A stretch of DNA of 64,000 bases from Candidatus Woesearchaeota archaeon (GTDB lineage: Archaea; Nanobdellota; Nanobdellia; Pacearchaeales; GW2011-AR1). This document shows positions 9,366-51,943 of the stretch, piece by piece. A program made the translations under genes and the position numbers. The notes below the pieces were generated by a model. The model was not told the DNA's origin and did not search any database. It saw nothing but the letters and a program-made list of their open reading frames with translations. Position 1 is the stretch's first letter, and the number at the start of each line of letters is the position of its first letter. The stretch spans positions 7,483 through 71,482 of the forward strand of contig CAYIHY010000001.1 of the NCBI GenBank assembly GCA_964363345.1, written 5' to 3'.

Positions 9366-11162
9366 TTATTCTTTTGATTTAATTGCTGCCCTTATAATTT
9401 TTTCTTCCAAGTCTTTCCATTTAGGATCATCAGTTAAGTTATACAATGCTTCTGAAGTCGCAAATAAATTAGCTAATGTAACAAAATTTCTTGATAATTC
9501 TGATTTCTTAGTAATCTCTCTAAGTTTTTCAACTGCTTTTGGTAAATGTAAAAGGGCCTCAATTGAAGCGGTGCGCATTAAAGAATCATTTACTAAAGTT
9601 ATCTCTGGATGAGGAAAGATTATATTTAATTTTGGAACAACTATCTCTTCGCCGATATAATCGTAACCTGATTGTTTATTGTGAAACATTACTTTATCCT
9701 TGAATAATTCCTGCTGATAGGGGAATGTTCTTTTTACTTCATAAATTCCATCCCCCCAAATATCTGTTCCCGGGAGAGGAGTTAAAAATAAAGTTGCAGC
9801 TCCGTCGACATTCATTTCCCCGATATTATAACAGATGCCTAAGGCACTTTCATAAAAAGTTTCTGCGGTTGTAGCAGGAGTATATAAAATATAATTTTCT
9901 GCAGCCTTAAGTCCGTTATCTACAATAATCTTAATTGCTTCTGAATTTTTTTCAGGAGAAGTTTTTTTCCTCATATATTCTAATTCTTTAAGAGAATAAC
10001 TCTCAGAACCTACAGATACCACTTCAAATCCCGCTTCTTTTAAGAGTCTGCATATATCTGGATTTGATACAATATTGTCTGTCCTTGCTCTGCATTGAAA
10101 TTTTAAATTTTTTCTTATCTTACCAGATTTTTTTCTTTCTATAATCATTCCTAGAGTTTCTATCGCCCTTTGGGGATGAACAAGAAAATTTTCATCATCG
10201 ATATAAATGTCCATTGCAGGATATGTAGTCGAAACAGCTTCAATTATCGTCAATATATTTTCTGCATTGATATAACGCACAGGAGAAGTCTTAGTTCCCA
10301 TTGTTCCAGAAAAAAGTATAGAACTCTGGCAGAAAATGCATTTGTATGGGCAATGGTCGCTCGAAACAAAACGAAAATAACTATCTTTTTTTCCGCCAAA
10401 TATCAATCTGCTGAGTTCCCAATATTTCCCGATTGGAGAAAGATCCAAATGTTTTGCAAAGGCATTAAGGCTTATCTCTTGATAAAATTCTGGACTTATT
10501 CTTTCTTTGACAATTGCCAAAGGTTTAGTTTGATTCTCTTCTAAAATAGACATCCCTGAAATTTCATTTATTTTAGTTTCTTCTTTCAAATAATCTAAAA
10601 ATTTTTTCTTTTCTATTTTTTTGTTATTAGAAAATTTATCATAAATCTGAATTAATTTTTGCAAGGGTAATTCCCCCTCCCCCCGAATAATTATATCAAT
10701 TAAACCCCCAAGTTTCCCCCATTGAGGATTAAGTGAGGCTTCAAATCCCCCCGCAATTATAATTGATTCTGGAGAAATCTCAAGAACATGATTTATATTT
10801 TCTAAATCTCGACGCATACTATCATAATATGGACTAAACGCTATAAAGGGGGGATGATATTTGTCGATTCCTTCCCATAATTTTTTGAGATTATCCACAT
10901 CGCAATTGAACATGACTGATTTAATTCCCATTTCCTGCAAAAATGCATGTATTCTAAAAAGACCGTTATGAAGATTTGGAATAAAATAGGGGTCATTGTC
11001 GGTTCTTTTTCCCATATCGGGGGTGATTAAAATTATTTCAGTGTCTGATTCTATTTTTGTATCATACTGAACTAAACTCTCTGGGACATTATAATTTTCT
11101 TTAATCCCTCCGCTGCCCATATCCACAGAGATATGTAAATTTTTTTGGACTGATTCTTCCAT
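9366..11162 (-). CDS. Cobalamin-binding radical SAM protein (class B-like)
   Basis: 598 aa; CxxxCxxC motif DHCPYKCIFCQSS; N-terminal Rossmann-like B12-binding-type region; C-terminal extension. Confidence 0.65.
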   Translation of the reverse strand: MEESVQKNLHISVDMGSGGIKENYNVPESLVQYDTKIESDTEIILITPDMGKRTDNDPYFIPNLHNGLFRIHAFLQEMGIKSVMFNCDVDNLKKLWEGIDKYHPPFIAFSPYYDSMRRDLENINHVLEISPESIIIAGGFEASLNPQWGKLGGLIDIIIRGEGELPLQKLIQIYDKFSNNKKIEKKKFLDYLKEETKINEISGMSILEENQTKPLAIVKERISPEFYQEISLNAFAKHLDLSPIGKYWELSRLIFGGKKDSYFRFVSSDHCPYKCIFCQSSILFSGTMGTKTSPVRYINAENILTIIEAVSTTYPAMDIYIDDENFLVHPQRAIETLGMIIERKKSGKIRKNLKFQCRARTDNIVSNPDICRLLKEAGFEVVSVGSESYSLKELEYMRKKTSPEKNSEAIKIIVDNGLKAAENYILYTPATTAETFYESALGICYNIGEMNVDGAATLFLTPLPGTDIWGDGIYEVKRTFPYQQELFKDKVMFHNKQSGYDYIGEEIVVPKLNIIFPHPEITLVNDSLMRTASIEALLHLPKAVEKLREITKKSELSRNFVTLANLFATSEALYNLTDDPKWKDLEEKIIRAAIKSKE

Positions 11163-11216
11163 TATATTTCTTTTGATTTATCTTTTTTATAACTTACGTA
11201 TTTAAAATAATTGGTA

Positions 11217-12101
11217 TTACGAATTTTTATTTTTTAAATTACTTCTCAAAACTTCTTTATTTCTTTCACTTTCACGATCAAATAAAAAACCTTCCCAAAA
11301 ACCAGTTATATTAGCAATATGAATTAAAGGGGCAATTAATATTAAATAAATTGGGAATAAATGGGGATATTTTCTAAATGGGAACCTGCAGATAATTGAA
11401 ATAAATCCGAATATAGGAATAGATCTTAATATCCTATGCCAAAATCCCCCCTCATTTTCTCCGTAAGAGATGAGGGCATTCGCATGTCTTCTGACTAATT
11501 TCCCATTTCCTTCAGAATAAATTTTTAACTTATCTATCACTCCACGAAAACTTTTTTGTTTGTGCAGATGAAGCACTTTCACATTAGCGCGTGCAAATTT
11601 ACCCCTTTTTTTTAGTTTCATGCTTAGGTCAGCTTCAAGTCCAATTATCTTTGGATCTTCACTAATCAATCCTACCTCCATCAAATCTTTTTTTCTATAT
11701 GCACACGCTCTCATGTCCATGGTGGGATATTGTATATTTCTCTCATTTATCGTAGCTAATCGAAGCATAAATGGATATTTTTTCCAATATTTTTCAGGCA
11801 AGAATAAATCTGAAACTGTTGCAACAATTTTTTTATCTTCTAGCGGTTTGATTAATTTTTCAAGCCAAAATTCGTTTTCTGGGATACAGTCCTGAGCTAA
11901 GATAATGATTATCTCTCCCTTTGCTTCCTTTATTCCCAAATTCATTGAGACCGCTTCGGGATTATTCCATTTTTCAACAATCTCTGCTTTTATTGTCTGT
12001 TTTTTTAACATTTCTTTTACCCTTTCAAAAACTTCTTTTTCTGGCCTGTAAATCGGAATTACCACACTTACTTTTTTTTTGGCAGAACCTTTATTTTTCA
12101 T
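11217..12101 (-). CDS. Glycosyltransferase family 2
   Basis: VSVVIPIYRPEK at the N-terminus (the GT2 hallmark); DxD-type region (AQDCIPE); C-terminal hydrophobic helices. Confidence 0.7.
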   Translation of the reverse strand: MKNKGSAKKKVSVVIPIYRPEKEVFERVKEMLKKQTIKAEIVEKWNNPEAVSMNLGIKEAKGEIIIILAQDCIPENEFWLEKLIKPLEDKKIVATVSDLFLPEKYWKKYPFMLRLATINERNIQYPTMDMRACAYRKKDLMEVGLISEDPKIIGLEADLSMKLKKRGKFARANVKVLHLHKQKSFRGVIDKLKIYSEGNGKLVRRHANALISYGENEGGFWHRILRSIPIFGFISIICRFPFRKYPHLFPIYLILIAPLIHIANITGFWEGFLFDRESERNKEVLRSNLKNKNS

Positions 12102-12187: not shown

Positions 12188-12217
12188 TTCTAACTTTATT
12201 AATAAATATTGGCGACC

Positions 12218-15002: not shown

Positions 15003-15010
15003 AAATAAAA

Positions 15011-17393: not shown

Positions 17394-18431
17394 ATGGTGA
17401 AAAAACAATTCGGTATAAATGGTTTTGGAAGAATTGGCAGAGCAATCTTCAGAAAAGCTTTAGAAAATGGAACTTTTGATATCCCCCTAATAAACGATCT
17501 TAATCCAGATAATAATAATTTAGCTTATCAATTAAAATATGATTCTATTTACGGAACTCTTCCTTTTGAAATAAGGGGAAATGAAAAAGGTATAACAATT
17601 GAGGGAAAACAGTATGAGATTTCTCATGAGAGAGAGATAAATAAAGTTAATTGGAAAAATCTTGAATGTGTTGTTGATTCGTCGGGGGTAAAAGAAAATG
17701 TTGTCCTTGCAAGAAAATTAGTAGAACAAAATGTTAAGTATGTGATTGTAACCCATTCCCCTGAGGAAAAATTATTGGATAGAAGTGTAATAATGGGAGT
17801 TAATGAAAATGAAATTGATTTTAATAAAGATAGAATTATCTCTAGCAGTATCTGTGATGCAACGGCATTTGCTCCAGTAGTGCAACTTCTTGACTCTGCA
17901 TATGGGGTTGAACACGGATTCTTGACGACAATTCATCCTTGGCTTCAGCATCAACATCTTTTAGACGGTCCATCAACTTCTTGGTCAAAACCCGGACAAA
18001 TCTATCCCGGATACGAGGAAGGAAGAGCGAGCACTGTTTCATTATTGCCCAAACCAACTTCCTGTGTTAGTGCCACTTGCAAAGTGATTAAATCTCTTGA
18101 AGGAAAATTTGACTCTTTTTCTTACCGAGCTCCGACGGCAATTGTTTCAACCGCAAATATCAATCTTAAGCTAAATAAAAATCCTTCAAAAGAAGAAATT
18201 ATCTCATTATTCCTTGAAGCAGAAAAAAATCAAAAATGGAAGATATTTTCAAATAATTTCGAACCTTTAGTGTCAATAGATTTTAAAGGAAATGAACATT
18301 CTGTTTCTGTTGACCATAGATGGACCGCGATAAATAAATTTGGTTATGCTCGGTTGGTTCTTTGGTATGATAATGAACAAGGCTATGGGAGCAGAGTTTT
18401 AGATTTAGCTGATTATTTATTATCTCATTAA
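17394..18431 (+). CDS. Type I (bacterial/eukaryotic-type) glyceraldehyde-3-phosphate dehydrogenase-like dehydrogenase with a divergent active-site region
   Basis: FGINGFGRIGR, YDSIYG and LWYDNEQGYGSRVLDL are GAPDH/E4PDH signatures. The catalytic segment is SSICDATAFAP instead of the canonical ASCTTNCLAP. Confidence 0.65.
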   Translation: MVKKQFGINGFGRIGRAIFRKALENGTFDIPLINDLNPDNNNLAYQLKYDSIYGTLPFEIRGNEKGITIEGKQYEISHEREINKVNWKNLECVVDSSGVKENVVLARKLVEQNVKYVIVTHSPEEKLLDRSVIMGVNENEIDFNKDRIISSSICDATAFAPVVQLLDSAYGVEHGFLTTIHPWLQHQHLLDGPSTSWSKPGQIYPGYEEGRASTVSLLPKPTSCVSATCKVIKSLEGKFDSFSYRAPTAIVSTANINLKLNKNPSKEEIISLFLEAEKNQKWKIFSNNFEPLVSIDFKGNEHSVSVDHRWTAINKFGYARLVLWYDNEQGYGSRVLDLADYLLSH

Positions 18432-20296: not shown

Positions 20297-20345
20297 AATA
20301 ATCTATTATAAAAAAAGGTTTAAAGATTTTCGGTATGAATAATAT

Positions 20346-34485: not shown

Positions 34486-34680
34486 ATGAAAAAATTAGCA
34501 AACCAATTAAAAAAAGGGGATAAAATAATTTTAGCCTCTCAAGAGTATTCTATTGAAGAGCTGGAAATATCAGATATAGGGAAACATGGAATGAGAAAAG
34601 TAAGAATTGTTGCAGTATCTCCAAAACAAGAAAAAATTATTCTAATCCGTCCTGAAGATTATCCTTTTGAATCAAAATGA
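34486..34680 (+). CDS. Small hypothetical protein (64 aa, basic, possible SH3/KOW-like beta fold)
   Basis: ORF with an upstream TATA-like box; 4-nt overlap with the downstream GT2 gene suggests co-translation. No confident family. Confidence 0.25.
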   Translation: MKKLANQLKKGDKIILASQEYSIEELEISDIGKHGMRKVRIVAVSPKQEKIILIRPEDYPFESK

Positions 34681-44084: not shown

Positions 44085-44610
44085 TCTTTTTTGGTCCAAG
44101 TAAAAATATTTTTGTGACTGTAAAAAAATTAACTTTCTTTTTTACCTCAAAATTTTCTTTTAAGATTTTTAGAATGTCTTCATAAGAAGTTATGTGCTCT
44201 TTAGGAACTTCTGTTTTCCCGACGAGTTTTCTCACTTTTCTTGAAATAAAATTTCCGGTAGGAATTGAAACAACTAACTGGAAGTTATCATTCATTTCCT
44301 TAAAATTGTTTATAGTCCTCCTTATCTCTGAAGGGAGAATATGTTCAAATACATCAAGACAGAAAATTTTAGTGGGTTTTAATGTTCTGTAATCTTTAAT
44401 AAAAGTTTTATCTGGATTTATATCATATCCGATTATGTTAAATCCCTTAAGTTTTTTTTCAAGCCATCCTGCTCCGCAGCCAAAATCAAGAATTATATCT
44501 TCTTTTTTTAAATTAGCGATTTTTATGGAAGCATCAATCTTTCTTTTAAAATAAGTTCGTGTCAAAAAATTCTTGTTTTCATATGTATTTTCTAAAAGAT
44601 TATTTTCCAT
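44059..44610 (-). CDS. Class I SAM-dependent methyltransferase
   Basis: ILDFGCGAGWLEKKL (motif I); 183 aa. Confidence 0.6.
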   Translation of the reverse strand: MENNLLENTYENKNFLTRTYFKRKIDASIKIANLKKEDIILDFGCGAGWLEKKLKGFNIIGYDINPDKTFIKDYRTLKPTKIFCLDVFEHILPSEIRRTINNFKEMNDNFQLVVSIPTGNFISRKVRKLVGKTEVPKEHITSYEDILKILKENFEVKKKVNFFTVTKIFLLGPKKIKNIPLCK

Positions 44611-45481
44611 TTTCGTTTTTCTTATTTTTTATTTCTAAAAATATTTTATGCAACTCTTCAACTTTAAGATTCTTTTTAATTCCTTCTCTGTTTAATAAAT
44701 AAATCGCTTTCATTTCTTTGTCTTTCCCGTCATATCCATGCATGGCTTTGACAGGATTTTTCCCCTGCCAATAATTGGGGAGTATTAAGACCCCAGAATT
44801 TGCGAGAAAAATATGCTCCCCATACTTTTTATCTTTCCATTCAATCCATTTTCCGTCTCTGGAATCAAATTGTGGTTTTTGTCCCCAATACCTTGCCATA
44901 TCCGAATCAATAAAACAATTATCTGTTTTTGGGACAGAAATATTTTTTTTAATGTCTATCATCCCATGGTCAGAAAGGATTATATCAAACTTCATCCTTA
45001 AAATCTTTTCATCAACTTTTTTTATTGCGGATATTATTTCTTTGCTTTTCGTCCCATATTTGTGCCCGACAATATCTAAGTCCTGAATATAAAAATATTC
45101 AACTCCTTTAATTTTGTAAAATGGCTCATTAACTGAAAAATCAAATTTCCACAATTCTTTCAGAGGGATATTCTCGGTTCTGAATAATTCATATCTTCTG
45201 ACAAATCGAGGGAAATTAATCATGGAATCAACAATAAATCTTCCAACCTTTCCAAATTTTTCCAGAAATAAAAAATGTTTAATAAATTTTAAAGAAGAAT
45301 TTTCCTTCTTGTAAATCAAAGCAAGTTTGTCTGAACTTCCTTTAAAAAAAATTTCCATTCCCCCTTCATGCCCCGTTGGCATTTCCAGTTCCCCCCATTG
45401 GAATTTTTTTGTCAACGAAGAAAGATAAGGTGCATACTCAAGATATTCTGGCTTGAATGCATCTATCATGACTACCTTCAT
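44600..45481 (-). CDS. Alkaline-phosphatase-superfamily metalloenzyme (nucleotide pyrophosphatase/phosphodiesterase- or phosphomutase-like)
   Basis: N-terminal MKVVMIDAFKPEYLEY (compare the V.IDALRPDYL of AP-superfamily enzymes) and ILSDHGM (DHG metal motif). Confidence 0.4.
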   Translation of the reverse strand: MKVVMIDAFKPEYLEYAPYLSSLTKKFQWGELEMPTGHEGGMEIFFKGSSDKLALIYKKENSSLKFIKHFLFLEKFGKVGRFIVDSMINFPRFVRRYELFRTENIPLKELWKFDFSVNEPFYKIKGVEYFYIQDLDIVGHKYGTKSKEIISAIKKVDEKILRMKFDIILSDHGMIDIKKNISVPKTDNCFIDSDMARYWGQKPQFDSRDGKWIEWKDKKYGEHIFLANSGVLILPNYWQGKNPVKAMHGYDGKDKEMKAIYLLNREGIKKNLKVEELHKIFLEIKNKKNENGK

Positions 45482-45484: not shown

Positions 45485-46927
45485 TTACTTAAATTTTTCA
45501 AGATTATATTTATTTACCGTAAATCTGAATGCATTGTCTATCTCTAAGTCATATTTTCTTTTGTAATAAGCAAAAAATAACCCCAGATCAAACAAGAACC
45601 TAAACGGATTCATTTTTAATCCCTCAAATAGAACTTTTTTTATCTGATAAATTCTGACTTTATTTACCACTTTCTTTATATCTTTCATCTTTACATATTT
45701 TGTTCTGGAAACAGGGGAAGTGAACATAAGATGAGAATCTTTGAAACCTTTCCCCTCAATTAAATTTTCTTTTTCACAGATTTCTTTTATTTCTGTTGCG
45801 GGGAGAGGCATTAATATTGGGAAAAGTGTATAGTTTGCATTTATCTTCATAGCCATTTTGTAACTTTCATTCATTGTTTTCGTAGTTTCATAAGGGGCTC
45901 CGACGATAAATTGCACTCTTAAATGCAAGCCGTATTTTTTTATTATTTTAACCGCATTGTAAATTTGTTCTTCGCTCATTTCTCTTTTGTACAGCTTATT
46001 TCTGATTTCATCATTTCCCGCTTCAACCCCCATACGGACTTCATAACATCCTGCATCTTTCATAGCCTTTATTATTTCATCTGTAACTAAATTTGCTCTT
46101 ACATTAACATTCCATCTTAATTTTTTGTCAAATCCCTTTTCTTTAAATCTTTTGCAGAAATCAAGGGCAAATTTTTTGTCAAGAATAAAAGTATCATCAT
46201 AAAAAAATAAATATCTCATTCCAATAGGATAATATTGTTTTATTCTTAATTCTATTTCTTTTATAATGCTTTCAACACTTCTGATTCGAACATATTTTCC
46301 CTCAAGTTTTTTCCTTATTGCATGATTGCTGCAATAAGTGCAGTTGTAGGGGCATCCTCTCGAGCCCATAATTGGAAGATGATCATTGTTTATTAAAAAA
46401 TATTTTTTTAAATCGTAATCTTCAAAATCAGGAAAAGGAAGCTCATCTAGTTCTTCAATCAATCTTAAATTTGGATTTTTGATAATTTCTCCATTTCCTT
46501 TTTTATACCAAATCCCCCTTACTTTTTTGCAATCTAATTTTTTATCAAGCAAATCTTTCAATACATATTCTCCTTCGCAGGTGCAGACAATATCAACCTC
46601 TTTATTTTTTATTGTTTCTTCGGGCATTAATATTGCATGTACTCCGCCGAAAATTATTTTTATATTATAATGTTTTTTTATAAATTGCGCCATTTTTAAT
46701 GCCTGACTGTAATCAAAACTCATCACAGAAAATCCAATCAAATCTGGTTTAAATTTTTCTATCTTCCTCTTGAGATACATTTCCCAATCTTTTTTATGGA
46801 AAATAAAATCAGCTATCTCTGCTTTATGTTCGGTTTTATTATTTACAAAAGATTTCAAAGTAGCTAAAGCCATGCTGGGCATTAAAGCATACCCTTCTAT
46901 GTTTGGTTCTACTAATAATACTTTCAT
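45485..46927 (-). CDS. Cobalamin-binding radical SAM protein (class B)
   Basis: MKVLLVEPNIEGYALMPSMALATLKSF B12-type N-terminal domain; GSRGCPYNCTYCSN CxxxCxxC; 480 aa. Confidence 0.7.
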   Translation of the reverse strand: MKVLLVEPNIEGYALMPSMALATLKSFVNNKTEHKAEIADFIFHKKDWEMYLKRKIEKFKPDLIGFSVMSFDYSQALKMAQFIKKHYNIKIIFGGVHAILMPEETIKNKEVDIVCTCEGEYVLKDLLDKKLDCKKVRGIWYKKGNGEIIKNPNLRLIEELDELPFPDFEDYDLKKYFLINNDHLPIMGSRGCPYNCTYCSNHAIRKKLEGKYVRIRSVESIIKEIELRIKQYYPIGMRYLFFYDDTFILDKKFALDFCKRFKEKGFDKKLRWNVNVRANLVTDEIIKAMKDAGCYEVRMGVEAGNDEIRNKLYKREMSEEQIYNAVKIIKKYGLHLRVQFIVGAPYETTKTMNESYKMAMKINANYTLFPILMPLPATEIKEICEKENLIEGKGFKDSHLMFTSPVSRTKYVKMKDIKKVVNKVRIYQIKKVLFEGLKMNPFRFLFDLGLFFAYYKRKYDLEIDNAFRFTVNKYNLEKFK

Positions 46928-48318
46928 TTTTTGTCTAATCCCAAAAAAGCAATCCCCGCATTTAGATATATTTTAAATTTTTCAAGGTCTTTAATATTTT
47001 TCAATGCCTTAAGAATTATTTTTGGTCTGAAATAAAATTCCCGATAAGCTTTTTTTTGCATTTCCAAAAGCATTTTTCCGTCAAGATTTCCATGCTTGAA
47101 TATCACATGCCCATAAGCGATATAATCTCGGTAACTTTTTGGGTATATTTCTCCCTCTTCTTTTATTATTTTCCAATAATCTGTATTCGGAAAAGGAATT
47201 GTTATATGAAATGTTGCAGTATCCAAATCAAGGGATTTTGCAAAATTTATTGTGTCTTTCATAGTTTTTTCATCTTCCCCAAAATTTCCAAACATAAATA
47301 ATCCTCGCGTTTCAATTCCCGCTTCTTTGCACCATTTTACCGCAGTTCTGACTTTTTCTAAATCAATACTCTTCTTCATTTTTTTCAAAATCTCTTCATT
47401 TCCGGATTCTATTCCCAAGGAGACCATGTAGCATCCCGCATTTTTCATTTTTCTAAGTAATTCAGGATTTATTCGGTCTACTCTTATTCCGTTAGAGCAC
47501 CTCCAGCTCATTTTTTTGTTTAATCCTTTTTCTATCATCAAATTGCAGAATTTTTCAACACGGTCTATAAAAAGAGTAAAATTGTCGTCGACAAAATCCC
47601 AGTCTCTTGCACCTCTTTTGTAAATTTCTTCAACTTCTGCAATAATACTTTCCGGGCTTCTGAATCGGAATTTTCTGCCGTGAACTAAATGGTCTGCGCA
47701 GAAAAGACATTGATACGGACATCCCCTTGAGCTTAAAATATAATCACTCGGTTTTTGTTTTGAACCCGCACTAAAATATTTATCCATTGGCAATAATTCT
47801 CTTGCAGGAAAAGGAAGTTCATCCAATTTTTCATTTAGTTCTCTTTCTGTATTGTGAACTATTTTTCCATTTTTTCTGTAAGATAAACCTTTAATCTTTG
47901 AAATATTTTCTCCAAGAACAAATTCTAACATCGCAAATTCCCCCTCTCCTCTTACAAGATAATCAAATCTTTCAAATTTTTCTAAAGTTTCCTGGGGCAT
48001 AGAACTTGCATGAATCCCCCCGATAATAACTTTAATTTCTTTTTTGCACAGCCTTGCCAGTTCATGCGCTTCTTCGATCAGAGAAGTAGTTGAAGTAATA
48101 CCAACAATATTCGGAGAATAATTTTCAATTTCTTTTTCTATCTGAGAATGAGTTAAATCAAGTGCATTCGCTTCTAATATTTTAACTTCGACATTATTTT
48201 TTTTCAAAACTGCTGCAATATATGCTAGCCCGAGGGGGGGAAAAATTGGAGTTATTTCCTTTTTCTTGGCATAAGCATAAATTCTCCGATAATTCGGCTG
48301 TATCAATAATACTTTCAT
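46924..48318 (-). CDS. Cobalamin-binding radical SAM protein (class B), in tandem with 45485..46927
   Basis: MKVLLIQPN...PPLGLAYIAAVLKKNNVEVKILEANAL; SSRGCPYQCLFCAD; 464 aa; 4-nt overlap with the downstream paralog. Confidence 0.7.
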   Translation of the reverse strand: MKVLLIQPNYRRIYAYAKKKEITPIFPPLGLAYIAAVLKKNNVEVKILEANALDLTHSQIEKEIENYSPNIVGITSTTSLIEEAHELARLCKKEIKVIIGGIHASSMPQETLEKFERFDYLVRGEGEFAMLEFVLGENISKIKGLSYRKNGKIVHNTERELNEKLDELPFPARELLPMDKYFSAGSKQKPSDYILSSRGCPYQCLFCADHLVHGRKFRFRSPESIIAEVEEIYKRGARDWDFVDDNFTLFIDRVEKFCNLMIEKGLNKKMSWRCSNGIRVDRINPELLRKMKNAGCYMVSLGIESGNEEILKKMKKSIDLEKVRTAVKWCKEAGIETRGLFMFGNFGEDEKTMKDTINFAKSLDLDTATFHITIPFPNTDYWKIIKEEGEIYPKSYRDYIAYGHVIFKHGNLDGKMLLEMQKKAYREFYFRPKIILKALKNIKDLEKFKIYLNAGIAFLGLDKK

Positions 48319-48367: not shown

Positions 48368-49528
48368 TCAAACCAGCTTTTGCAGGTAATATATAGAATA
48401 CAATTTGAGTATTCTGTCTTTTAGAGGCTTTATTTTGTTGGTTAATTTTTTTAGATATTTTAAGGATTCCTCTTCTTCCCCCAAGGAATAAAGAATCAGG
48501 GATAGTGCAATAGTTATTCCAGCATCTCTCCATCTCATCAGACTCTTCAGCAAAAATTCTTTTTTTCTCAATCCTTCTAAAAAAAATCGAATATTCAAAT
48601 AATATTGCGCAGGAAAGAAAAATTTGCCCCCAAGATAATCATTAAAATAAACATAAGGCAATTTTTTGTAAGTTTCTCTGCATATAATCTTCCAGTCATC
48701 TGATTTTATCTCGAGCTGTTCTTTAAGGATTTTTTTCAATCCCCATTCAACCCATTTTTTTGATTCATTAAAAAAAGAGTCAACATTTTTTATTATGTAT
48801 CCATCATACAATTTTGCTTTTGTAGCTTCACTTAGAAATTTTTTTAATTCTTCGGGAAAATCAAGAGAGTAGAAAACTTTTTCTCTTTCTTCTGCTTTTG
48901 ATAAATACTTCCCCCCAAGAATAAGCAATGCAGAGCATAAATCAACAAAACCCTTGATTGCATAAATTGATTTAATTTTTTCTGAATTTCCCTCGGCAAT
49001 TGCAAAATGGTCAAATTTGTTAAATAATAATCGTATTGCATCAGATTTTGAAATCTTTGTAGGGGGGATTTTTTCTAGAATATTTTCATCTCCATAAATT
49101 ACTAAACTTGTTCTTAAATCAAAAGTTCTCTGGGTGGGATATAATTTACCCAACTCATTGCTAAGAATGCAGTGCAGGTCAACATGAAAAAATTTATTTT
49201 CATCATAAGTTTTTTCGAAATTTTCAACAATTTCAAGTCCGCCTCTCCCAATTGCAGCAGAGCATTTCTCTCCAAGTTTTTCTAACAATCGTCCGCTTGC
49301 TTTTTTTTTTGTTATCAAATAAAGATCATAATCATTTAATGGAGTTATTTTCCCTTTAATTTTTTTAAAGCTCCCATTTCCGTGCCCAAATCCTCCAAAA
49401 AAAACTATTGCAATCGGATTAATCTCTTTCAAAACTATTTTCTTTATAATTTCTAAATCTCTTTCAATTTTTTTATCAGCTTCTTTTGATGTGGTGTATT
49501 TCATTTTTTTTATCCAATAAAATAACAA
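48368..49528 (-). CDS. Predicted nucleotidyltransferase (Pol-beta-superfamily minimal NTase fold) with a C-terminal helical domain
   Basis: FFGGFGHGNGSF-x12-NDYDLYLI fits hG[GS]-x9-13-DhD; the start is probably the internal Met (MKYTTSK). Confidence 0.35.
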   Translation of the reverse strand: MLFYWIKKMKYTTSKEADKKIERDLEIIKKIVLKEINPIAIVFFGGFGHGNGSFKKIKGKITPLNDYDLYLITKKKASGRLLEKLGEKCSAAIGRGGLEIVENFEKTYDENKFFHVDLHCILSNELGKLYPTQRTFDLRTSLVIYGDENILEKIPPTKISKSDAIRLLFNKFDHFAIAEGNSEKIKSIYAIKGFVDLCSALLILGGKYLSKAEEREKVFYSLDFPEELKKFLSEATKAKLYDGYIIKNVDSFFNESKKWVEWGLKKILKEQLEIKSDDWKIICRETYKKLPYVYFNDYLGGKFFFPAQYYLNIRFFLEGLRKKEFLLKSLMRWRDAGITIALSLILYSLGEEEESLKYLKKLTNKIKPLKDRILKLYSIYYLQKLV

Positions 49529-50450
49529 TTATCGCGATTATCGAAGGAATTACACTTGCAATAATTATGCTCAAAATTGACATTGAAAATACCTTTGTTG
49601 CCCCAATTCCCAGTACTCCAAATAGTCCAATCAAAGTTAATTCCCTTGTTCCAAAGCCGTTTATGGTTATTGGAATTTGGGCAATTAATGTTGCTATCGG
49701 CAATATTATAAGGAAATATTTGAAACTTATATTTATTCCTAAAGCTAAACCAATAAGATAGATATTAACATAATTAACAACCCAAGTCATCAAATTAACG
49801 ATGAGAGCCATGAATAAAAACGGCACAGAAGGAAGGTCTTCATAAAATGAATTAAATAAAATTCTGCTTTTTTCTTTTAATCTTTGAGGAATAAATTTTT
49901 TATATACAAATCCCAGCAAAAATCTGCTGCTGTCTTTATTGTAAAAAACAATAAATAATAACATTAACAAAATAAATGTTCCAATTAAAATATACCATTC
50001 TCCGTTGGGAATTATTTTTTTATATATTGTAAATCCAAATACAATCAACAGGATGAATAATGAACAAAAATCAAGAACTTTATCTATAACAAAATTGCTT
50101 ACCCCCTTTCCTGTTTCTGCTCCTTTCTTTTTTAGATAATCTGTCCGGATAATTGTTCCTATTTTTCCAGGAGTCACAAACCCATAAAAATTTGAAATAA
50201 AATTTATCTTAAAAGCTTCGTTGAATGAGATGTTTATTTTTTGCCTTTTCGCAAGGATAAACCATTTTAATGTCTGGAAAATTAAAAAAATTAAAACAAA
50301 AACAAAAGAAAGAGCAATATAACTCCAATTTAGATTATTAAACTCTGAAAATATTTTTGTAACATCTAATTTTACAAGAAGGTAAATAAATATAGCAACT
50401 CCGACGATTGGAAGATATTTTTTAATTGTTCCCCATTTCATAAAAATCAA
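49476..50450 (-). CDS. Integral membrane protein, UPF0104 / LPG-synthase-TM-like (flippase-like domain often paired with GT2 in archaeal and bacterial glycan loci)
   Basis: 324 aa, ~8 TM helices, short loops, GxxxG-rich; located next to the radical SAM and GT2 genes. Confidence 0.4.
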   Translation of the reverse strand: MIFMKWGTIKKYLPIVGVAIFIYLLVKLDVTKIFSEFNNLNWSYIALSFVFVLIFLIFQTLKWFILAKRQKINISFNEAFKINFISNFYGFVTPGKIGTIIRTDYLKKKGAETGKGVSNFVIDKVLDFCSLFILLIVFGFTIYKKIIPNGEWYILIGTFILLMLLFIVFYNKDSSRFLLGFVYKKFIPQRLKEKSRILFNSFYEDLPSVPFLFMALIVNLMTWVVNYVNIYLIGLALGINISFKYFLIILPIATLIAQIPITINGFGTRELTLIGLFGVLGIGATKVFSMSILSIIIASVIPSIIAIIVILLDKKNEIHHIKRS

Positions 50451-50485
50451 TGATTTTTTGTCAATAAAAACCTTTTGTATTATTC

Positions 50486-51943
50486 TTACTTCTTCACAAA
50501 ATCTTTCAAATGGCCGAAAACGGCTTTGACTCCTCTCAAATTAAATTTGAAATCATTCCAGGTTCTGATATTTTTCATTCTTTGAAAAATATAATTTGGA
50601 GTTAAAAAAATTGTATAAATTTTTCCGCAGATTCCTGCAATTTCCTGGGCATTTCCGTTTTCAATTTTCAAAACCGGTTCTCTCATGTCATATCTTTCAT
50701 ATTCAAGAGGATTAAACAAAAACCAATTATTTTCTTTTGCTTCTTTCCATAACGGAGTTCCAGGATATGGAACAAGAACTGTTGCCTGAAGTAAATCCGC
50801 TTTTCCGCTTTGCATTAATTTTCTTGCAAGTTTAAAAGTGTACATAGCATCTTCTTTTGTTTCCCAGGGGTAGCCAACAATCATAGTAAGATGAACTGTA
50901 AGTCCTGCCTTTTTTGCCATTCTGCATCCGTTTAAAATATCTTCAACCTTTATCCCCTTGTTTAATCTGTCAAGTGTTTTTTGATTCGCACTTTCTAATC
51001 CGAATTTTAATAATCTAAACCCTGCCTTTTTCATCAAAATAAATTCTTCTTGATTCAGAGCCCCGAAACGCATGTTGCATGAATATTTTATTTTTTTGTT
51101 GTATCCTCGTTTAATTAATCCTTCGCATAAATCTTTCAGCCATTTTCCCGTCATCAAAGTTCCGGAGTCATCAAAAATTTCCTTAACCTTATATTTTTCA
51201 ATTAGCATTCCTATTTCATTTAAAACATTTTCAACACTTCTTACTCTAAATCTCGGAAACAGCGTTGGCCACGCGCAGAATTTGCATTTTCCCCACCAGC
51301 AGTCTCGGCCAGACATTATATAAAAAAATGGATTTCCCTGAAGGTTATACTCTTTTTCATAAAGCTTCCATTTAGTTAATTCTCTGTCAATAAATGGAGC
51401 TTCATCAAGTCCGTGCCTCAAAGCAAATTCCCCCGAATTGATTATTTTTCTATTTTTTTTGTAATAAACTCCTGCAGGACATTTTTTTATTTTTCCAGAA
51501 ATCCAATCACATAATTCCATCAAACTAAAATCAAAATCTCCACCCCTTATAACAAAATCAGCTTCAGAATTTTTCAAGCTTTCTTCTGGAAATGAAGTAA
51601 CATGATCCCCCAAAAGAGCAATTTTCATTTCAGGAAATTTTTTCTTTAGTTCGTTGATAATTTTCCAATGCTGTTTTATTACCGGAGTTTTTGTTTCAAA
51701 TGCAAATAAATTAGGTTTTTCATTTTCTATCTTTTTGATAAATTCATTCCACTGAATTTTTTCTGCAATTGAATCGACCCAGAAAACTTCATGCCCCTCT
51801 TTTTTCAATAAAGTCGCTGCACTTCCAAGAATAACAGGAAATAAATAACTTGGATTTGAAAACCACTGAAATTGCCTGTTTTGGCTCAGCAACGCAATTC
51901 CCTTTTCAGAGTTTGTCGGAGGATAACCAATAAATATCTTCAT
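50486..51943 (-). CDS. Cobalamin-binding radical SAM-like protein with an atypical CX4CX2C cluster motif
   Basis: N-terminal B12-type Rossmann region; SGRDCWWGKCKFCAW (C-x4-C-x2-C rather than C-x3-C-x2-C); 485 aa. Confidence 0.55.
   Translation of the reverse strand: MKIFIGYPPTNSEKGIALLSQNRQFQWFSNPSYLFPVILGSAATLLKKEGHEVFWVDSIAEKIQWNEFIKKIENEKPNLFAFETKTPVIKQHWKIINELKKKFPEMKIALLGDHVTSFPEESLKNSEADFVIRGGDFDFSLMELCDWISGKIKKCPAGVYYKKNRKIINSGEFALRHGLDEAPFIDRELTKWKLYEKEYNLQGNPFFYIMSGRDCWWGKCKFCAWPTLFPRFRVRSVENVLNEIGMLIEKYKVKEIFDDSGTLMTGKWLKDLCEGLIKRGYNKKIKYSCNMRFGALNQEEFILMKKAGFRLLKFGLESANQKTLDRLNKGIKVEDILNGCRMAKKAGLTVHLTMIVGYPWETKEDAMYTFKLARKLMQSGKADLLQATVLVPYPGTPLWKEAKENNWFLFNPLEYERYDMREPVLKIENGNAQEIAGICGKIYTIFLTPNYIFQRMKNIRTWNDFKFNLRGVKAVFGHLKDFVKK

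What the first reader, a model, noticed from the sequence alone, without database searches (positions are those of the whole stretch)
9366..51943. Six cobalamin-binding radical SAM paralogs embedded in one archaeal glycosylation island
Six proteins carry a B12-type Rossmann N-domain and a radical SAM Cys triad: 9366..11162, 21062..23683 (fusion), 32187..33725, 45485..46927 and 46924..48318 (tandem), and 50486..51943. Each is interleaved with, or overlaps by a few nucleotides, glycosyltransferases and nucleotide-sugar enzymes. Class B radical SAM enzymes usually do C-methylation, and sometimes ring contraction or epimerisation, at unactivated carbons (Fom3, GenK, TsrM-like). This density inside a sugar locus, next to aglB, suggests a glycan carrying several radical-installed modifications such as C-methyl branches. 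To my knowledge that has not been described for archaeal N-glycans. It also implies the organism can obtain cobalamin.
Basis: partly seen in the sequence, partly recalled or inferred. Interest (0 to 1): 0.85.

Follow-up and report, generated by a model that had tools for sequence, protein, structure and literature searches.

The report
Radical SAM-rich archaeal glycosylation island
A tiny groundwater archaeon (Pacearchaeota, DPANN) carries six vitamin-B12-type radical enzymes wired into its protein-glycosylation genes, which points to unusual and so far undescribed sugar chemistry on its surface, although the actual reactions are still unknown.

Summary
All six ORFs exist at the stated coordinates. 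Each passes Pfam thresholds for B12-binding (PF02310) and Radical_SAM (PF04055) and has a cluster Cys triad; RS6 has a conserved CX4CX2C variant. No seventh copy is in the window. Models of RS1 and RS5 (pLDDT about 91) match cobalamin radical SAM structures (OxsB, TsrM, MgmA, TokK) but also the cobalamin-independent sugar dehydratase AprD4.

The window comes from a groundwater Pacearchaeota/Nanoarchaeota (DPANN) genome. The six are old paralogs (21-34% identity), each with orthologs in related genomes. They sit in conserved cassettes:
- GT2-RS1-GT1
- sugar aminotransferase fused to RS2; in relatives these are two adjacent genes after RmlB/RmlA-type genes, followed by a GT2
- GT4-RS3
- aglB-GPT-GT2-RS6-flippase-like-unknown-RS5-RS4-phosphodiesterase-methyltransferase, beside a GT-C transferase

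This strongly supports a role in tailoring nucleotide- or dolichol-linked sugars. C-methylation, cobalamin use and the N-glycan as target remain inferences. None of the six reaches the cut-off of any characterised family (HpnJ, BchE, AprD4, MgmA and others).

I found no paper linking radical SAM enzymes to archaeal glycosylation. Verdict: a new variant of a known kind, and a good lead.

The parts
9366..11162 (-). RS1: 598-aa class B-type radical SAM protein (B12-binding aa 67-170, Radical_SAM 267-437, CPYKCIFC at 271). It has extra N- and C-terminal elements.
   Evidence: Pfam and Cys motif. The family is restricted to Pacearchaeota, with a sharp score cliff from 326 to 89 bits. Model pLDDT 91.6; best PDB matches are OxsB, TsrM and TokK. 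The GT2-RS1-GT1 triad is conserved in L012 and L013.
22514..23683 (-). RS2 N-terminal half: DegT/DnrJ/EryC1 PLP sugar aminotransferase domain (aa 1-390).
   Evidence: PF01041, 210.7 bits. Best NCBIfam hits are PseC, dTDP-4-amino-4,6-dideoxygalactose transaminase and ArnB, all below cut-off. PDB hits 4zwv, 4xau and ArnB.
21062..22513 (-). RS2 C-terminal half: B12-binding plus radical SAM module (CPYACTYC at 552). It begins MKHALVCFGNEE, the same N-terminus as the stand-alone 483-aa orthologs.
32187..33725 (+). RS3: 512-aa class B-type radical SAM protein (CPYGCDYC at 201). It overlaps the upstream GT4 gene by 4 nt.
   Evidence: The GT4-RS3 pair is conserved in L004 and L007. In L005 and L009 the orthologous GT4 (79-81% identity) is paired with a different 455-aa B12 radical SAM protein.
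45485..46927 (-). RS4: 480-aa class B-type radical SAM protein (CPYNCTYC at 192). Tandem partner of RS5.
   Evidence: Ortholog at 65% identity in L009, directly upstream of the RS5 ortholog with a 16-nt gap.
46924..48318 (-). RS5: 464-aa class B-type radical SAM protein (CPYQCLFC at 200). It is the paralog with the strongest domain scores, and its close homologs are the most numerous.
   Evidence: All 120 listed cluster hits have 49-100% identity, and those that carry a name are Pacearchaeota or Nanoarchaeota. Model pLDDT 91.4; PDB matches TsrM, MgmA, AprD4, OxsB, CysS and TokK.
50486..51943 (-). RS6: 485-aa class B-type radical SAM protein with a non-canonical CX4CX2C cluster motif (CWWGKCKFC, 215-223).
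   Evidence: The motif is conserved in orthologs (81% identity in L009, 53% in L010) and in 34 of the top 150 representatives.
53852..56653 (-). AglB oligosaccharyltransferase (STT3 family; WWDYG at residue 640; 14 predicted TM segments). First gene of the operon that contains RS6, RS5 and RS4.
52826..53851 (-). Polyprenyl-phosphate sugar-1-phosphate transferase (Glycos_transf_4; weak WecA/MraY-like hits).
   Evidence: There is a 0-nt gap to aglB. The AglB-GPT pair is also found in L010.
51985..52767 (-). Small GT2 glycosyltransferase directly upstream of RS6. It is a candidate polyprenyl-phosphate sugar synthase, by weak resemblance to the ArnC, AglJ and Dol-P-hexose transferase models.
   Evidence: Orthologs lie next to RS6 orthologs in L009 and L010.
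49476..50450 (-). Flippase-like membrane protein (LPG_synthase_TM / TIGR00374).
   Evidence: PF03706, 139 bits. TIGR00374 at 114.8 bits is above its cut-off of 43.2. 8 predicted TM segments. Conserved in L009, L010 and L011.
48368..49528 (-). Conserved 386-aa protein with no family assignment, between the flippase-like gene and RS5.
   Evidence: No Pfam, NCBIfam or PDB match. Homologs occupy the same position in L009, L010 and L011.
44600..45481 (-). Alkaline-phosphatase-superfamily phosphodiesterase-like protein, 3 nt downstream of RS4.
   Evidence: PF01663. Recurs in L009-L011.
44059..44610 (-). Small class I SAM methyltransferase. Last gene of the aglB operon.
   Evidence: PF13489. Orthologs in L009 and L010.
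42351..44084 (+). GT-C fold glycosyltransferase (PMT_2, 11 predicted TM segments), convergent on the aglB operon.
   Evidence: It lies near the RS5 ortholog in L009, L010 and L011.
30988..32190 (+). GT4 glycosyltransferase, translationally coupled to RS3.
34677..35579 (+). GT2 glycosyltransferase. It is the usual third member of the GT4-radical SAM-GT2 cassette; here it is separated from RS3 by queC on the other strand.
11217..12101 (-). GT2 glycosyltransferase upstream of RS1.
   Evidence: Its orthologs follow RS2 or the stand-alone RS2-type gene in L004 and L005, lie about 1.7 kb downstream of RS2 in L007, and lie a few genes upstream of RS1 orthologs in L012 and L013.
8208..9353 (-). GT1-domain glycosyltransferase downstream of RS1.
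28999..30866 (-). RmlA-like nucleotidyltransferase (28999-29898) and RmlB-like NDP-sugar 4,6-dehydratase (29877-30866). They are the probable suppliers of the keto-sugar used by the RS2 aminotransferase domain.
   Evidence: In L005 and L006 they directly precede DegT and the radical SAM gene.
18428..21038 (-). TylF-type methyltransferase (20346-21038) and asparagine-synthase-type amidotransferase (18428-20296), downstream of RS2.
137..1654 (+). Wzx-type polysaccharide flippase (13 predicted TM segments). It marks the left end of the visible island.

Best explanation
The window is a large (at least 56 kb) modular surface-glycan / protein N-glycosylation island of a groundwater Pacearchaeota (DPANN, Nanoarchaeota in NCBI naming) archaeon. 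The six genes are real, ancient paralogs with class B (B12-domain) radical SAM architecture. They are soluble cytoplasmic enzymes.

I propose they act as sugar-tailoring enzymes on activated sugars, either nucleotide-linked or dolichol-phosphate-linked, on the cytoplasmic face before flipping and transfer. Each would use a 5'-deoxyadenosyl radical to functionalise an unactivated sugar carbon.

Three kinds of cassette are visible:
1. RS2. RmlA/RmlB-type enzymes make an NDP-4-keto-6-deoxyhexose. The fused DegT domain aminates it. The fused radical SAM module modifies the amino-deoxy sugar before a GT2 transfers it.
2. RS1 and RS3. Each sits between two glycosyltransferases. It would modify the residue added by the first GT, or that GT's donor, before the next GT acts.
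3. RS6, RS5 and RS4. These lie in the aglB operon with a small GT2, a flippase-like PF03706 protein, a phosphodiesterase-like protein, a methyltransferase and a nearby GT-C (PMT_2) enzyme. This is the logic of an Arn/Gtr-type 'make a polyprenyl-P-sugar, tailor it, flip it, transfer it outside' system, with radical SAM tailoring.

Shown: domain architecture, fold, paralog age, organism, the fusion, and conserved synteny.

Inferred: the substrates, the order of steps, and the chemistry. The chemistry is most probably C-methylation for several of the six, because that is what most characterised class B enzymes do, but ring contraction, dehydration or deamination are live options for some. Cobalamin use is also inferred.
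For: Architecture and fold.

Old paralogs with separate orthologs: 21-34% identity between paralogs, against 49-88% identity to orthologs in other genomes.

Organism: the exact RS5 sequence occurs on Hainich groundwater contigs. The closest genomes are labelled 'Nanoarchaeota archaeon H41-bin124_1' and 'uncultured archaeon LFW-273_1'. Named homologs are Candidatus Pacearchaeota.

Link to sugar metabolism:
- The DegT-radical SAM fusion appears as two adjacent genes, 1 nt apart, after RmlB/RmlA-type genes and before a GT2 in L005 and L006.
- The closest relatives of the aminotransferase half are fused instead to SAM methyltransferases or GNAT acetyltransferases, which are typical enzymes for modifying amino sugars.
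- GT2-RS1-GT1 is conserved in L012 and L013.
- GT4-radical SAM-GT2 is conserved in L004, L005, L007 and L009. In some of these a non-orthologous B12 radical SAM protein replaces RS3 beside an 80%-identical GT4.
- The aglB operon is tightly packed, with gaps of 0, 58, 41, 35, -53, 49, -4, 3 and -11 nt. Its GT2/RS6/flippase-like/unknown/RS5/MT/PMT_2 core recurs in L009-L011, with AglB and GPT in L010.

Location: no predicted TM segments in any of the six.

Flippase-like assignment: TIGR00374 is above its cut-off.

Precedents for class B enzymes acting on sugars or lipid-linked sugars: GenK, GenD1, Fms7, MoeK5 and HpnJ.

Rossmann-domain motifs shared with cobalamin-bound TokK: GGxH..P and GEGE are present in RS3, RS4 and RS5 and partly in RS1, RS2 and RS6.
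Against: - No biochemical evidence exists, and no glycan structure is known for any Pacearchaeota.
- None of the six, nor six further B12 radical SAM orthogroups from related loci, reaches the curated cut-off of any characterised family. The reaction type is therefore open.
- RS5's best TM-score is to AprD4, which has the same architecture but does not use cobalamin.
- DPANN genomes are reported to lack most cofactor biosynthesis. Six cobalamin enzymes would therefore require scavenging, which is untested here.
- RS6 is only at threshold for PF02310, has LG instead of GG in the Rossmann motif, and has a non-canonical cluster motif. RS2 lacks the GEGE motif.
- Synteny is evidence for a shared pathway. 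It does not show a particular substrate or order of steps.
Confidence: 0.68

Rival explanations
1. Some or all of the six are cobalamin-independent enzymes that merely keep a B12-like Rossmann domain, as AprD4 does. They would carry out radical dehydration, deamination or deoxygenation of sugars rather than methylation. For RS2 in particular, the aminotransferase plus radical SAM pair would work like DesI/DesII: aminate C-4, then remove the amine by radical chemistry to give a 4-deoxy sugar.
For: - AprD4 (6fd2) gives the best TM-scores for the RS5 model (0.76/0.77), and its sequence E-value is close to that of MgmA (7e-23 against 2e-23).
- The review lists AprD4 and ArsL as B12-independent proteins sitting within the B12 radical SAM similarity network.
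- DPANN archaea are poor in cofactor pathways.
- The DesI/DesII precedent for coupling an aminotransferase to a radical SAM enzyme is established knowledge, recalled from memory and not tested here.
- Other DegT-radical SAM fusions without a B12 domain exist (P0084-P0086).
Against: - The AprD4 family model is far below cut-off for all six (at most 110 bits against 500) and ranks below HpnJ, BchE and the methylase models.
- No DesII-family hit was returned for RS2.
- The Rossmann domain is strongly conserved in the RS5 family (GG-x-H and RGEGE are invariant or nearly so). That is easier to explain if it still binds a cofactor.
- Cobalamin-bound TsrM, MgmA, OxsB, CysS and TokK are equally good structural matches.
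Confidence: 0.2
2. The RS6/RS5/RS4 module is an HpnI-J-K-L- or calditol-synthase-like system. A GT2 puts a hexose or hexosamine on a lipid. A B12-type radical SAM enzyme contracts or rearranges the ring into a carbocyclic (cyclitol-like) head group. A PF03706 protein flips it. The product would be a glycolipid or an unusual lipid-linked donor, not a methylated N-glycan residue.
For: - HpnJ is the top NCBIfam hit for RS4, RS5 and RS6 (169, 236 and 193 bits, nearly full length).
- The neighbouring membrane protein hits the HpnL model weakly and the 'flippase-like' and 'GlcN-PG flippase' models.
- L011 has a polysaccharide deacetylase next to the GT2, methyltransferase and flippase-like genes. 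Hopanoid synthesis likewise has a deacetylation step, by HpnK, before HpnJ acts.
- HpnJ and Cds are proposed ring-contraction enzymes acting on lipid-linked sugars.
Against: - HpnJ scores are less than half the cut-off of 577.6. HpnJ is also the generic top hit for most other Pacearchaeota B12 radical SAM orthogroups, so the similarity is not specific.
- HpnL scores 41.6 bits against a cut-off of 195.65.
- No hopanoid or lipid-synthesis genes are in the window.
- Pacearchaeota are reported to lack Tes, and most DPANN archaea are thought to lack lipid biosynthesis genes.
- The module is co-transcribed with aglB and a GPT.
Confidence: 0.15
3. The enzymes modify isoprenoid lipid chains (membrane lipids or the dolichol carrier) rather than sugars, like the B12-binding radical SAM lipid enzymes GrsA/GrsB (ring synthases) and Gmm (methylase).
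For: - Archaeal B12-binding radical SAM proteins with lipid substrates are known (GrsA/B, Gmm). Gmm resembles MoeK5.
- RS3's best NCBIfam hit is the ladderane-lipid model TIGR04072 (87.5 bits).
- A CDP-alcohol phosphatidyltransferase and a flippase-like gene lie in the island.
Against: - All such hits are far below cut-off.
- Pacearchaeota lack Tes/GDGT synthesis.
- The fusion to a sugar aminotransferase and the GT-radical SAM-GT cassettes point to sugars.
- No isoprenoid or lipid biosynthesis genes are in the window or in the related loci.
Confidence: 0.05
4. The enzymes modify peptides or proteins, for example the glycoprotein substrates or a RiPP, as the class B enzymes MgmA, Mmp10, PoyB/C and ApyD do. 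Their position among glycan genes would be incidental.
For: - MgmA (9ccb) is the best PDB sequence hit for RS5.
- The ApyD and RiPP C-methyltransferase models give moderate scores.
Against: - All these scores are below cut-off.
- No precursor-peptide, protease or exporter genes typical of RiPP clusters were found.
- Synteny with GTs and nucleotide-sugar genes is conserved, and RS2 is fused to DegT.
Confidence: 0.04

Closest known systems
Class B radical SAM sugar C-methyltransferases of antibiotic pathways (GenK, GenD1/GntE, Fms7, MoeK5)
   Same: Same two-domain architecture (B12-type Rossmann domain plus radical SAM barrel). They act on sugar carbons of glycosylated intermediates; MoeK5 works in the pathway to moenomycin, which the Gmm paper describes as structurally similar to archaeal lipids. 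Their genes are embedded among GTs and sugar-nucleotide genes.
   Different: Those are bacterial secondary-metabolite enzymes. Here the genes lie in a protein-glycosylation / surface-glycan island of a DPANN archaeon, in six diverged orthogroups, one of them fused to an aminotransferase. Direct sequence comparison was not possible because no models or sequences of these enzymes were available, so methylase activity is not shown.
HpnJ with HpnI/HpnK/HpnL (hopanoid cyclitol ether synthesis) and calditol synthase Cds
   Same: A B12-domain radical SAM protein working next to a GT2 and a PF03706 membrane protein on a lipid-linked sugar. HpnJ is the best NCBIfam model for RS4, RS5 and RS6.
   Different: Scores are less than half the HpnJ cut-off and are equally high for unrelated Pacearchaeota paralogs. 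The context lacks hopanoid or lipid genes and is an aglB operon. HpnJ chemistry itself has not been reconstituted.
AprD4 (radical SAM 1,2-diol dehydratase of apramycin biosynthesis)
   Same: Same overall fold (TM 0.76/0.77 to the RS5 model), and its substrate is a sugar.
   Different: AprD4 is treated as B12-independent. The family model scores at most 110 bits against a cut-off of 500.
Structurally characterised cobalamin radical SAM enzymes (TsrM, MgmA/QCMT, OxsB, TokK, CysS)
   Same: They are the top structural matches for the RS5 and RS1 models (E 1e-14 to 1e-27). GGxH and GEGE motifs are shared with TokK.
   Different: 14-22% identity and entirely different substrates (tryptophan, a protein glutamine, a nucleotide, carbapenem and other small-molecule intermediates). 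RS1 has extra N- and C-terminal elements.
Arn / Gtr-type three-component glycosylation (GT2 polyprenyl-P-sugar synthase + flippase + GT-C transferase, with tailoring of the lipid-linked sugar such as ArnD)
   Same: A small GT2, a flippase-like membrane protein and a GT-C (PMT_2) enzyme are clustered with tailoring enzymes.
   Different: The tailoring enzymes here would be radical SAM proteins, for which I know no precedent. The flippase-like protein belongs to PF03706, not to the ArnE/F or GtrA families. The analogy is inferred from gene content only.
DesI/DesII (aminotransferase plus radical SAM deaminase in desosamine biosynthesis)
   Same: A DegT-family aminotransferase functionally coupled to a radical SAM enzyme on an NDP-4,6-dideoxyhexose. 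This resemblance is from established knowledge, recalled from memory.
   Different: DesII has no B12-type domain, and no DesII-family hit was returned for RS2. The DesI model scores 86 bits against a cut-off of 650.

Membership tests
Class B (B12-binding domain) radical SAM superfamily | N-terminal B12-binding Rossmann domain (PF02310) above the gathering threshold | tested here: met
   All six score at or above 32.1 bits (36.2, 49.6, 43.8, 48.8, 78.6, 32.1). RS6 is exactly at threshold.
Class B (B12-binding domain) radical SAM superfamily | Radical SAM core (PF04055) with a three-Cys [4Fe-4S] motif | tested here: met
   PF04055 scores 45-95 bits. RS1-RS5 have CxxxCxxC. RS6 has a conserved CX4CX2C variant.
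Class B (B12-binding domain) radical SAM superfamily | Three-dimensional architecture matching solved cobalamin radical SAM enzymes | tested here: met
   Tested for RS5 and RS1 only. Models have pLDDT 91.4 and 91.6. Top Foldseek hits are TsrM, MgmA, OxsB, TokK and CysS, and also AprD4.
Class B (B12-binding domain) radical SAM superfamily | Actual binding and use of cobalamin | not testable with these tools
   No sequence criterion exists: the cofactor is bound base-off with no protein ligand, and B12-independent AprD4 and ArsL are nested in the network. DxHxxG is absent, as expected for the class. The alignment to the TokK W76 position is unreliable.
HpnJ (TIGR03471, hopanoid cyclitol ether radical SAM) | Score at or above the curated equivalog cut-off (577.6 bits) | tested here: not met
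   RS5 235.7, RS6 192.6, RS4 168.9 and RS1 36.7 bits. Other Pacearchaeota paralogs score 100-222 bits.
HpnJ (TIGR03471, hopanoid cyclitol ether radical SAM) | Hopanoid biosynthesis gene context (shc, hpnH, hpnI, hpnK) | tested here: not met
   No such genes are in the window or in the related loci. The neighbouring PF03706 protein scores 41.6 bits against 195.65 for HpnL.
BchE (TIGR02026, anaerobic Mg-protoporphyrin cyclase) | Score at or above the cut-off of 481.35 bits | tested here: not met
The best score is RS5 at 197.7 bits.
AprD4 family diol dehydratase (NF033070) | Score at or above the cut-off of 500 bits | tested here: not met
   RS5 109.8, RS4 90.9, RS6 40.3 and RS3 25.4 bits.
MgmA / MCR glutamine C-methyltransferase (TIGR04014) | Score at or above the cut-off of 360 bits | tested here: not met
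   RS5 139.1, RS4 100.6 and RS6 69.3 bits.
GenK / GenD1 / Fms7 / MoeK5 / Fom3 (characterised sugar- or nucleotide-linked-substrate class B methylases) | Phylogenetic placement within the clade of a characterised member | not tested
   No profile or sequence of these proteins was available in the libraries offered. Only the literature statement that Fom3, MoeK5 and HpnJ co-cluster at a stringent network threshold is available.
DegT/DnrJ/EryC1 sugar aminotransferases (N-terminal half of RS2) | PF01041 above threshold over the full domain length | tested here: met
   210.7 bits over profile positions 4-359 of 360. No NCBIfam equivalog cut-off is reached (best is PseC at 158.7 bits against 423.5).
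AglB / STT3 oligosaccharyltransferase (53852-56653) | STT3 domain, multi-span N-terminal region and the WWDYG catalytic motif | tested here: met
   PF02516 scores 35.1 bits (cut-off 24.5), with a weak PF21436 core-domain hit. 14 predicted TM segments. WWDYG at residue 640.

The most novel reading that the evidence does not exclude
Pacearchaeota, symbionts with very small genomes, may build surface N-glycans or glycoconjugates whose sugars are repeatedly rebuilt by a lineage-specific radiation of cobalamin-dependent radical SAM enzymes. At least ten orthogroups are visible across the loci examined. They include a DegT-radical SAM fusion and a subfamily with a CX4CX2C cluster motif. They would act on nucleotide- and dolichol-linked sugars to give C-alkylated, deoxygenated or carbocyclic residues not yet seen in any protein glycan. 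Radical SAM 'tailoring cassettes' would be swapped between glycosyltransferases as a way to diversify the surface. This would also make the cell surface depend on cobalamin scavenged from hosts or neighbours.
Probability: 0.3. Interest if true: 0.85.

Novelty: new variant of a known kind. Interest (0 to 1): 0.62.

Why it matters
Class B radical SAM enzymes that act on sugars are known only from a few antibiotic pathways and from hopanoid head-group synthesis. None has been tied to protein glycosylation or to archaeal surface glycans.

If these genes do what their context implies, four things follow:
- Archaeal N-glycans would gain a new type of modification chemistry: C-C bond formation or rearrangement at unactivated sugar carbons.
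- Enzymologists would get compact, conserved, soluble targets with a predictable substrate. The best example is the RS2 fusion, whose first half should make the substrate of the second.
- It would show that a genome-reduced DPANN symbiont invests a substantial share of its coding capacity in elaborate surface sugars, which is relevant to host attachment and to evading viruses.
- It raises a testable question about cobalamin dependence in organisms that apparently cannot make it.

Tried and rejected
1. Membership in HpnJ, BchE, HpnR, PhpK, MgmA, AprD4, ladderane, BzaD, KedN5, TsrM-type and other NCBIfam equivalogs. All scores are far below cut-off, for the six paralogs and for six further orthogroups from related loci. 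Rejected as memberships. HpnJ similarity is generic.
2. hpnI/J/L analogy for GT2-RS6-PF03706. The HpnL and HpnB models score far below cut-off. Kept only as a mechanistic rival.
3. Using the 'lower axial residue' (TokK W76) to separate methylases from non-methylases. The only usable alignment scores 20 bits, and the six paralogs show S/F/S/P/T/D at that column. Too unreliable, so not used.
4. PDB sequence searches for the conserved unknown 386-aa protein and for the phosphodiesterase-like protein. Nothing informative. Permissive Pfam searches for the unknown proteins also gave nothing.
5. Foldseek against AFDB50. The library was unavailable.
6. Literature searches for prior descriptions: DPANN + radical SAM + glycosylation + cobalamin; radical SAM + AglB/N-glycan; cobalamin-dependent radical SAM + nucleotide sugar/polysaccharide; Pacearchaeota + radical SAM. 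No relevant paper was found.
7. Search for cobalamin uptake or synthesis genes in the window. None found. The 'vitamin uptake' Vut_1 gene (35576-36268) sits near queC, so my guess from that position and family knowledge is a queuosine-precursor transporter. Whole-genome checks were not possible.
8. Not done, because their sequences could not be obtained with the tools offered.
9. Sequencing or assembly artefact as the cause of the RS2 fusion. Rejected: it is in frame with an 11-12-residue linker, and it is present in several independent assemblies.

Full report

Yes. The six ORFs are present at exactly the stated coordinates. I call them RS1 to RS6:
- RS1: 9366-11162, minus strand, 598 aa
- RS2: 21062-23683, minus strand, 873 aa
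- RS3: 32187-33725, plus strand, 512 aa
- RS4: 45485-46927, minus strand, 480 aa
- RS5: 46924-48318, minus strand, 464 aa
- RS6: 50486-51943, minus strand, 485 aa

All six pass Pfam's gathering thresholds for both PF02310 (B12-binding) and PF04055 (Radical_SAM). RS6 is exactly at threshold for PF02310, at 32.1 bits. RS1 to RS5 have CxxxCxxC. RS6 has CWWGKCKFC, a CX4CX2C variant.

Profile HMMs built from the RS5 and RS1 families detect exactly these six ORFs in the window. None has DxHxxG, which is normal for this enzyme class: the cofactor is bound base-off without a protein ligand (review PMC12931638).

RS2 is a three-domain fusion: DegT/DnrJ/EryC1 aminotransferase, then the B12 domain, then the radical SAM domain. 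RS4 and RS5 overlap by 4 nt, and RS3 overlaps the upstream GT4 gene by 4 nt.

AlphaFold models of RS5 (pLDDT 91.4) and RS1 (pLDDT 91.6) have class B radical SAM structures as top PDB matches.
- RS5 matches TsrM, MgmA, AprD4, OxsB, CysS and TokK.
- RS1 matches OxsB, TsrM, TokK, MgmA, CysS and AprD4.

RS1 had no sequence-level PDB hit, so its assignment was the least certain of the six. It is now confirmed at the fold level.

**2. Where does the window come from?**

GC content is 28-33% throughout. The exact RS5 protein is encoded on contigs from Hainich groundwater metagenomes, from 0.1 and 0.2 um filter fractions.

A scan of species-representative genomes with RS2 found two relatives:
- 93% identity in 'MAG: Nanoarchaeota archaeon H41-bin124_1'
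- 88% identity in 'uncultured archaeon LFW-273_1'

Named homologs of RS5 and RS1 are almost all 'Candidatus Pacearchaeota' or 'Nanoarchaeota'. The organism is therefore a Pacearchaeota-type DPANN archaeon.

**3. What surrounds the six genes?**

Nearly every gene from the left end of the window to about 56.7 kb belongs to glycan biosynthesis. In order:
- A Wzx-type flippase.
- A GDP-mannose 4,6-dehydratase, a TylC3-type NDP-hexose C-methyltransferase, two cupins and a DegT aminotransferase. Together these form a classical pathway to a branched amino-deoxy sugar.
- GT1, RS1 and GT2.
- A block with a CDP-alcohol phosphatidyltransferase, a nucleotidyltransferase, a glycerate-kinase-like protein, an SDR, a DHQS-like/VOC fusion and a GAPDH-like protein.
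- An AsnB-type amidotransferase, a TylF-type methyltransferase and RS2.
- RmlA- and RmlB-like genes.
- GT4, RS3, queC on the opposite strand, and GT2.
- A heptose-type block: a GT9/cytidylyltransferase/NUDIX fusion, an HAD phosphatase, a PfkB kinase and a cytidylyltransferase.
- A GT-C (PMT_2) enzyme.
- One tightly packed minus-strand operon: aglB - GPT - GT2 - RS6 - flippase-like PF03706 protein - conserved unknown - RS5 - RS4 - phosphodiesterase-like - methyltransferase. The gaps are 0, 58, 41, 35, -53, 49, -4, 3 and -11 nt.

AglB has the STT3 domain, 14 predicted TM segments and WWDYG. The six radical SAM proteins have no predicted TM segments. They are therefore cytoplasmic, as expected for Fe-S enzymes acting before the flipping step.

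**4. The paralogs are old, and each has its own conserved context.**

Identity between the six is only 21-34%. Each nevertheless has orthologs in other Pacearchaeota genomes:
- RS2: 72-88% identity
- RS3: 71-79%
- RS4: 65%
- RS5: 49-95%
- RS6: 53-81%
- RS1: 39-65%

*RS2.* Only three full-length fusion clusters were found among 5.8 billion sequences. The other close homologs are stand-alone 483-aa proteins. In L005 and L006 the gene order is RmlB-like, nucleotidyltransferase, DegT (379 aa), a 1-nt gap, the B12 radical SAM gene (483 aa), then GT2. In the window, the stop codon is replaced by an 11-12-residue linker in front of the same MKHALVCFGNEE start. This is a textbook Rosetta-stone case for functional coupling to a sugar aminotransferase. 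The closest relatives of the aminotransferase half are fused instead to SAM methyltransferases or GNAT acetyltransferases, which are the usual enzymes that modify a newly made amino sugar.

*RS1.* Its family is found in Pacearchaeota only, with a score cliff from 326 to 89 bits. It sits in a GT2-RS1-GT1 arrangement next to a CDP-alcohol phosphatidyltransferase in L012 and L013, as in the window.

*RS3.* The GT4-RS3 pair recurs in L004 and L007. In L005 and L009 the orthologous GT4 (79-81% identity) is instead followed by a different 455-aa B12 radical SAM protein (about 31% identical to RS3) and a GT2. The radical SAM slot in this cassette is therefore exchangeable.

*RS4, RS5 and RS6.* The GT2-RS6-PF03706 unit, and the unit of conserved unknown, RS5, methyltransferase and PMT_2, recur in L009, L010 and L011. 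AglB and GPT are present in L010.

Related loci are just as rich in these enzymes. L009 holds five B12 radical SAM genes plus a SPASM radical SAM gene within 21 kb. L004, L012 and L013 carry a further 422-423-aa orthogroup that is absent from the window. The dense association with glycan genes is thus a lineage trait, not an accident of this window.

**5. What do they do?**

No paralog, and none of six additional orthogroups from related loci, reaches the curated cut-off of any NCBIfam equivalog. The highest scores are for HpnJ (RS5 236, RS6 193, RS4 169 bits; cut-off 578) and BchE (at most 198; cut-off 481). HpnJ is also the top hit for most other Pacearchaeota paralogs, so this similarity is generic.

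At the PDB sequence level, RS5 is about equally close to MgmA (a Cbl-dependent C-methylase, 9ccb; identity from PMC11796369 and PMC12931638) and to AprD4. AprD4 is a sugar 1,2-diol dehydratase that the review treats as unrelated to B12 chemistry despite sitting in the same similarity network.

Known class B enzymes that act on sugars or lipid-linked sugars are GenK, GenD1/GntE, Fms7, MoeK5 and HpnJ. Fom3, MoeK5 and HpnJ co-cluster at stringent network thresholds (PMC9204698). HpnJ and the calditol synthase Cds are proposed ring-contraction enzymes, not yet reconstituted (PMC13459092).

From this I conclude three things.
- The shown facts (architecture, fusion, synteny, cytoplasmic location) make a sugar-tailoring role very likely.
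- The type of reaction is not determined. C-methylation is the most probable single guess for several of the six, because it is the commonest activity of the class. The RS3, RS4 and RS5 Rossmann domains also keep the GGxH..P and GEGE motifs seen in cobalamin-bound TokK.
- Ring contraction, dehydration or deamination remain credible for some, notably a DesI/DesII-like deoxygenation for RS2 and an HpnJ-like reaction for the RS6 module.

The aglB-operon module has the gene content of an Arn/Gtr-type system: a GT2 that makes a polyprenyl-P-sugar, tailoring enzymes, a flippase-like protein (TIGR00374 above cut-off), and a GT-C transferase. That is an inference from gene content.

**6. Rivals considered.**

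- Lipid-chain modification, as by GrsA/B or Gmm (PMC11214058). This is unlikely. Pacearchaeota are reported to lack the tetraether synthase (PMC8941075), and no lipid genes are nearby.
- Peptide modification. This lacks any supporting context.

Cobalamin supply could not be examined. The window holds no uptake or synthesis genes, and published DPANN surveys report cofactor pathways as rare or incomplete (PMC8407392 and PMC8421398). This cuts both ways: either cobalamin is scavenged, or some of these enzymes do not need it.

**7. Novelty.**

Four full-text searches found no paper connecting radical SAM enzymes with AglB or archaeal N-glycans, or with DPANN or Pacearchaeota glycosylation. The searched library is incomplete, so this is absence of evidence only.

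The enzyme class and its ability to act on sugars are known. What is new:
- the setting, a protein-glycosylation island of a genome-reduced archaeon
- the number of distinct orthogroups
- the DegT fusion
- the exchangeable GT-radical SAM-GT cassettes
- the CX4CX2C subfamily

I rate it a new variant of a known kind, with interest 0.62. It is a well-supported and experimentally tractable lead with unknown chemistry, not a demonstrated new mechanism.

Noticed in passing
window 15679-17349 (+), with neighbours at 12209-18431: A DHQ-synthase-like protein of the sugar phosphate cyclase superfamily is fused to a VOC/glyoxalase domain (aa 414-549). It scores 239 bits for aroB (cut-off 305) and 190 bits for TIGR04425. 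It sits beside an SDR, a glycerate-kinase-like DUF4147/MOFRL protein, a GAPDH-like protein, a nucleotidyltransferase and a CDP-alcohol phosphatidyltransferase. My guess is a cyclitol/carbasugar or phosphoglycerate-type substituent pathway inside the glycan island. Parts of the block recur in L004, L012 and L013.
   Followed up: partly
window 1651-6014 (-): A classical, non-radical branched-sugar pathway: GDP-mannose 4,6-dehydratase (4848-6014), a TylC3-type NDP-hexose C-methyltransferase (3568-4848; Methyltransf_13/14), two small cupin (FdtA-like) proteins (2766-3566) and a DegT aminotransferase (1651-2769). The island therefore already encodes at least one C-methyl sugar without radical chemistry.
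   Followed up: partly
window 50486-51943 (RS6); representatives P0312-P0461: The RS6 subfamily has non-canonical cluster motifs: CX4CX2C (CW[WY]G[KR]C.FC) and CX7CX2C (CWWRKDGGCTFC). A few close full-length homologs lack the Cys triad altogether (P0323, P0325, P0331) and could be inactive paralogs.
   Followed up: partly
homologs P0312, P0314, P0317, P0318 (RS6 type); P0199 (RS5 type); P0017-P0019, P0021, P0024, P0027, P0033, P0079 (DegT type): Long homologs of the glycan-island radical SAM and aminotransferase proteins carry, or appear to carry, inteins. The DegT-type and RS5-type ones have Pfam intein or homing-endonuclease domains. P0317 and P0318 (RS6 type) have intein-like inserts at or right after the Fe-S cluster motif; P0312 and P0314 are inferred from their length only.
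   Followed up: no
window 33722-34435 (-) and 35576-36268 (-): QueC (7-cyano-7-deazaguanine synthase family) and a Vut_1 'putative vitamin uptake transporter' are inserted on the opposite strand between RS3 and the GT2 that usually follows it. From their position and family knowledge I guess this is a salvage pair for archaeosine/queuosine precursors, not a cobalamin transporter.
   Followed up: no
window 36838-41201 (+): A heptose-type activation block: a 655-aa fusion of a GT9 heptosyltransferase-like domain, a cytidylyltransferase-like domain and NUDIX; an HAD phosphatase; a PfkB kinase; and a small cytidylyltransferase-like protein (a split HldE-like arrangement). The triple fusion is unusual.
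   Followed up: no
window 26003-28955; L004 6903-9890: Three consecutive proteins of about 300 aa have no Pfam match. They are conserved at 46-75% identity and at the same position, between the RmlA/RmlB-like genes and RS2, in L004.
   Followed up: no
L005 4370-6905 and L009 18921-21404, compared with window 30988-33725: The same GT4 (79-81% identical) is paired with non-orthologous B12 radical SAM proteins (455 aa against 512 aa, about 31% identity) in different Pacearchaeota. This suggests cassette-like exchange of the tailoring enzyme.
   Followed up: partly
one search hits P0012-P0016: The aminotransferase half of RS2 is 63-65% identical to proteins labelled Patescibacteria (CPR), in which it is fused to a SAM methyltransferase. 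This hints at exchange of glycan genes between DPANN archaea and CPR bacteria sharing groundwater habitats.
   Followed up: no
L009 2847-3935; L011 10515-11549: A SPASM-domain radical SAM protein (weak hits to the AhbD/NirJ-like models, far below cut-off) occurs in the same glycan modules of related genomes but not in this window.
   Followed up: no
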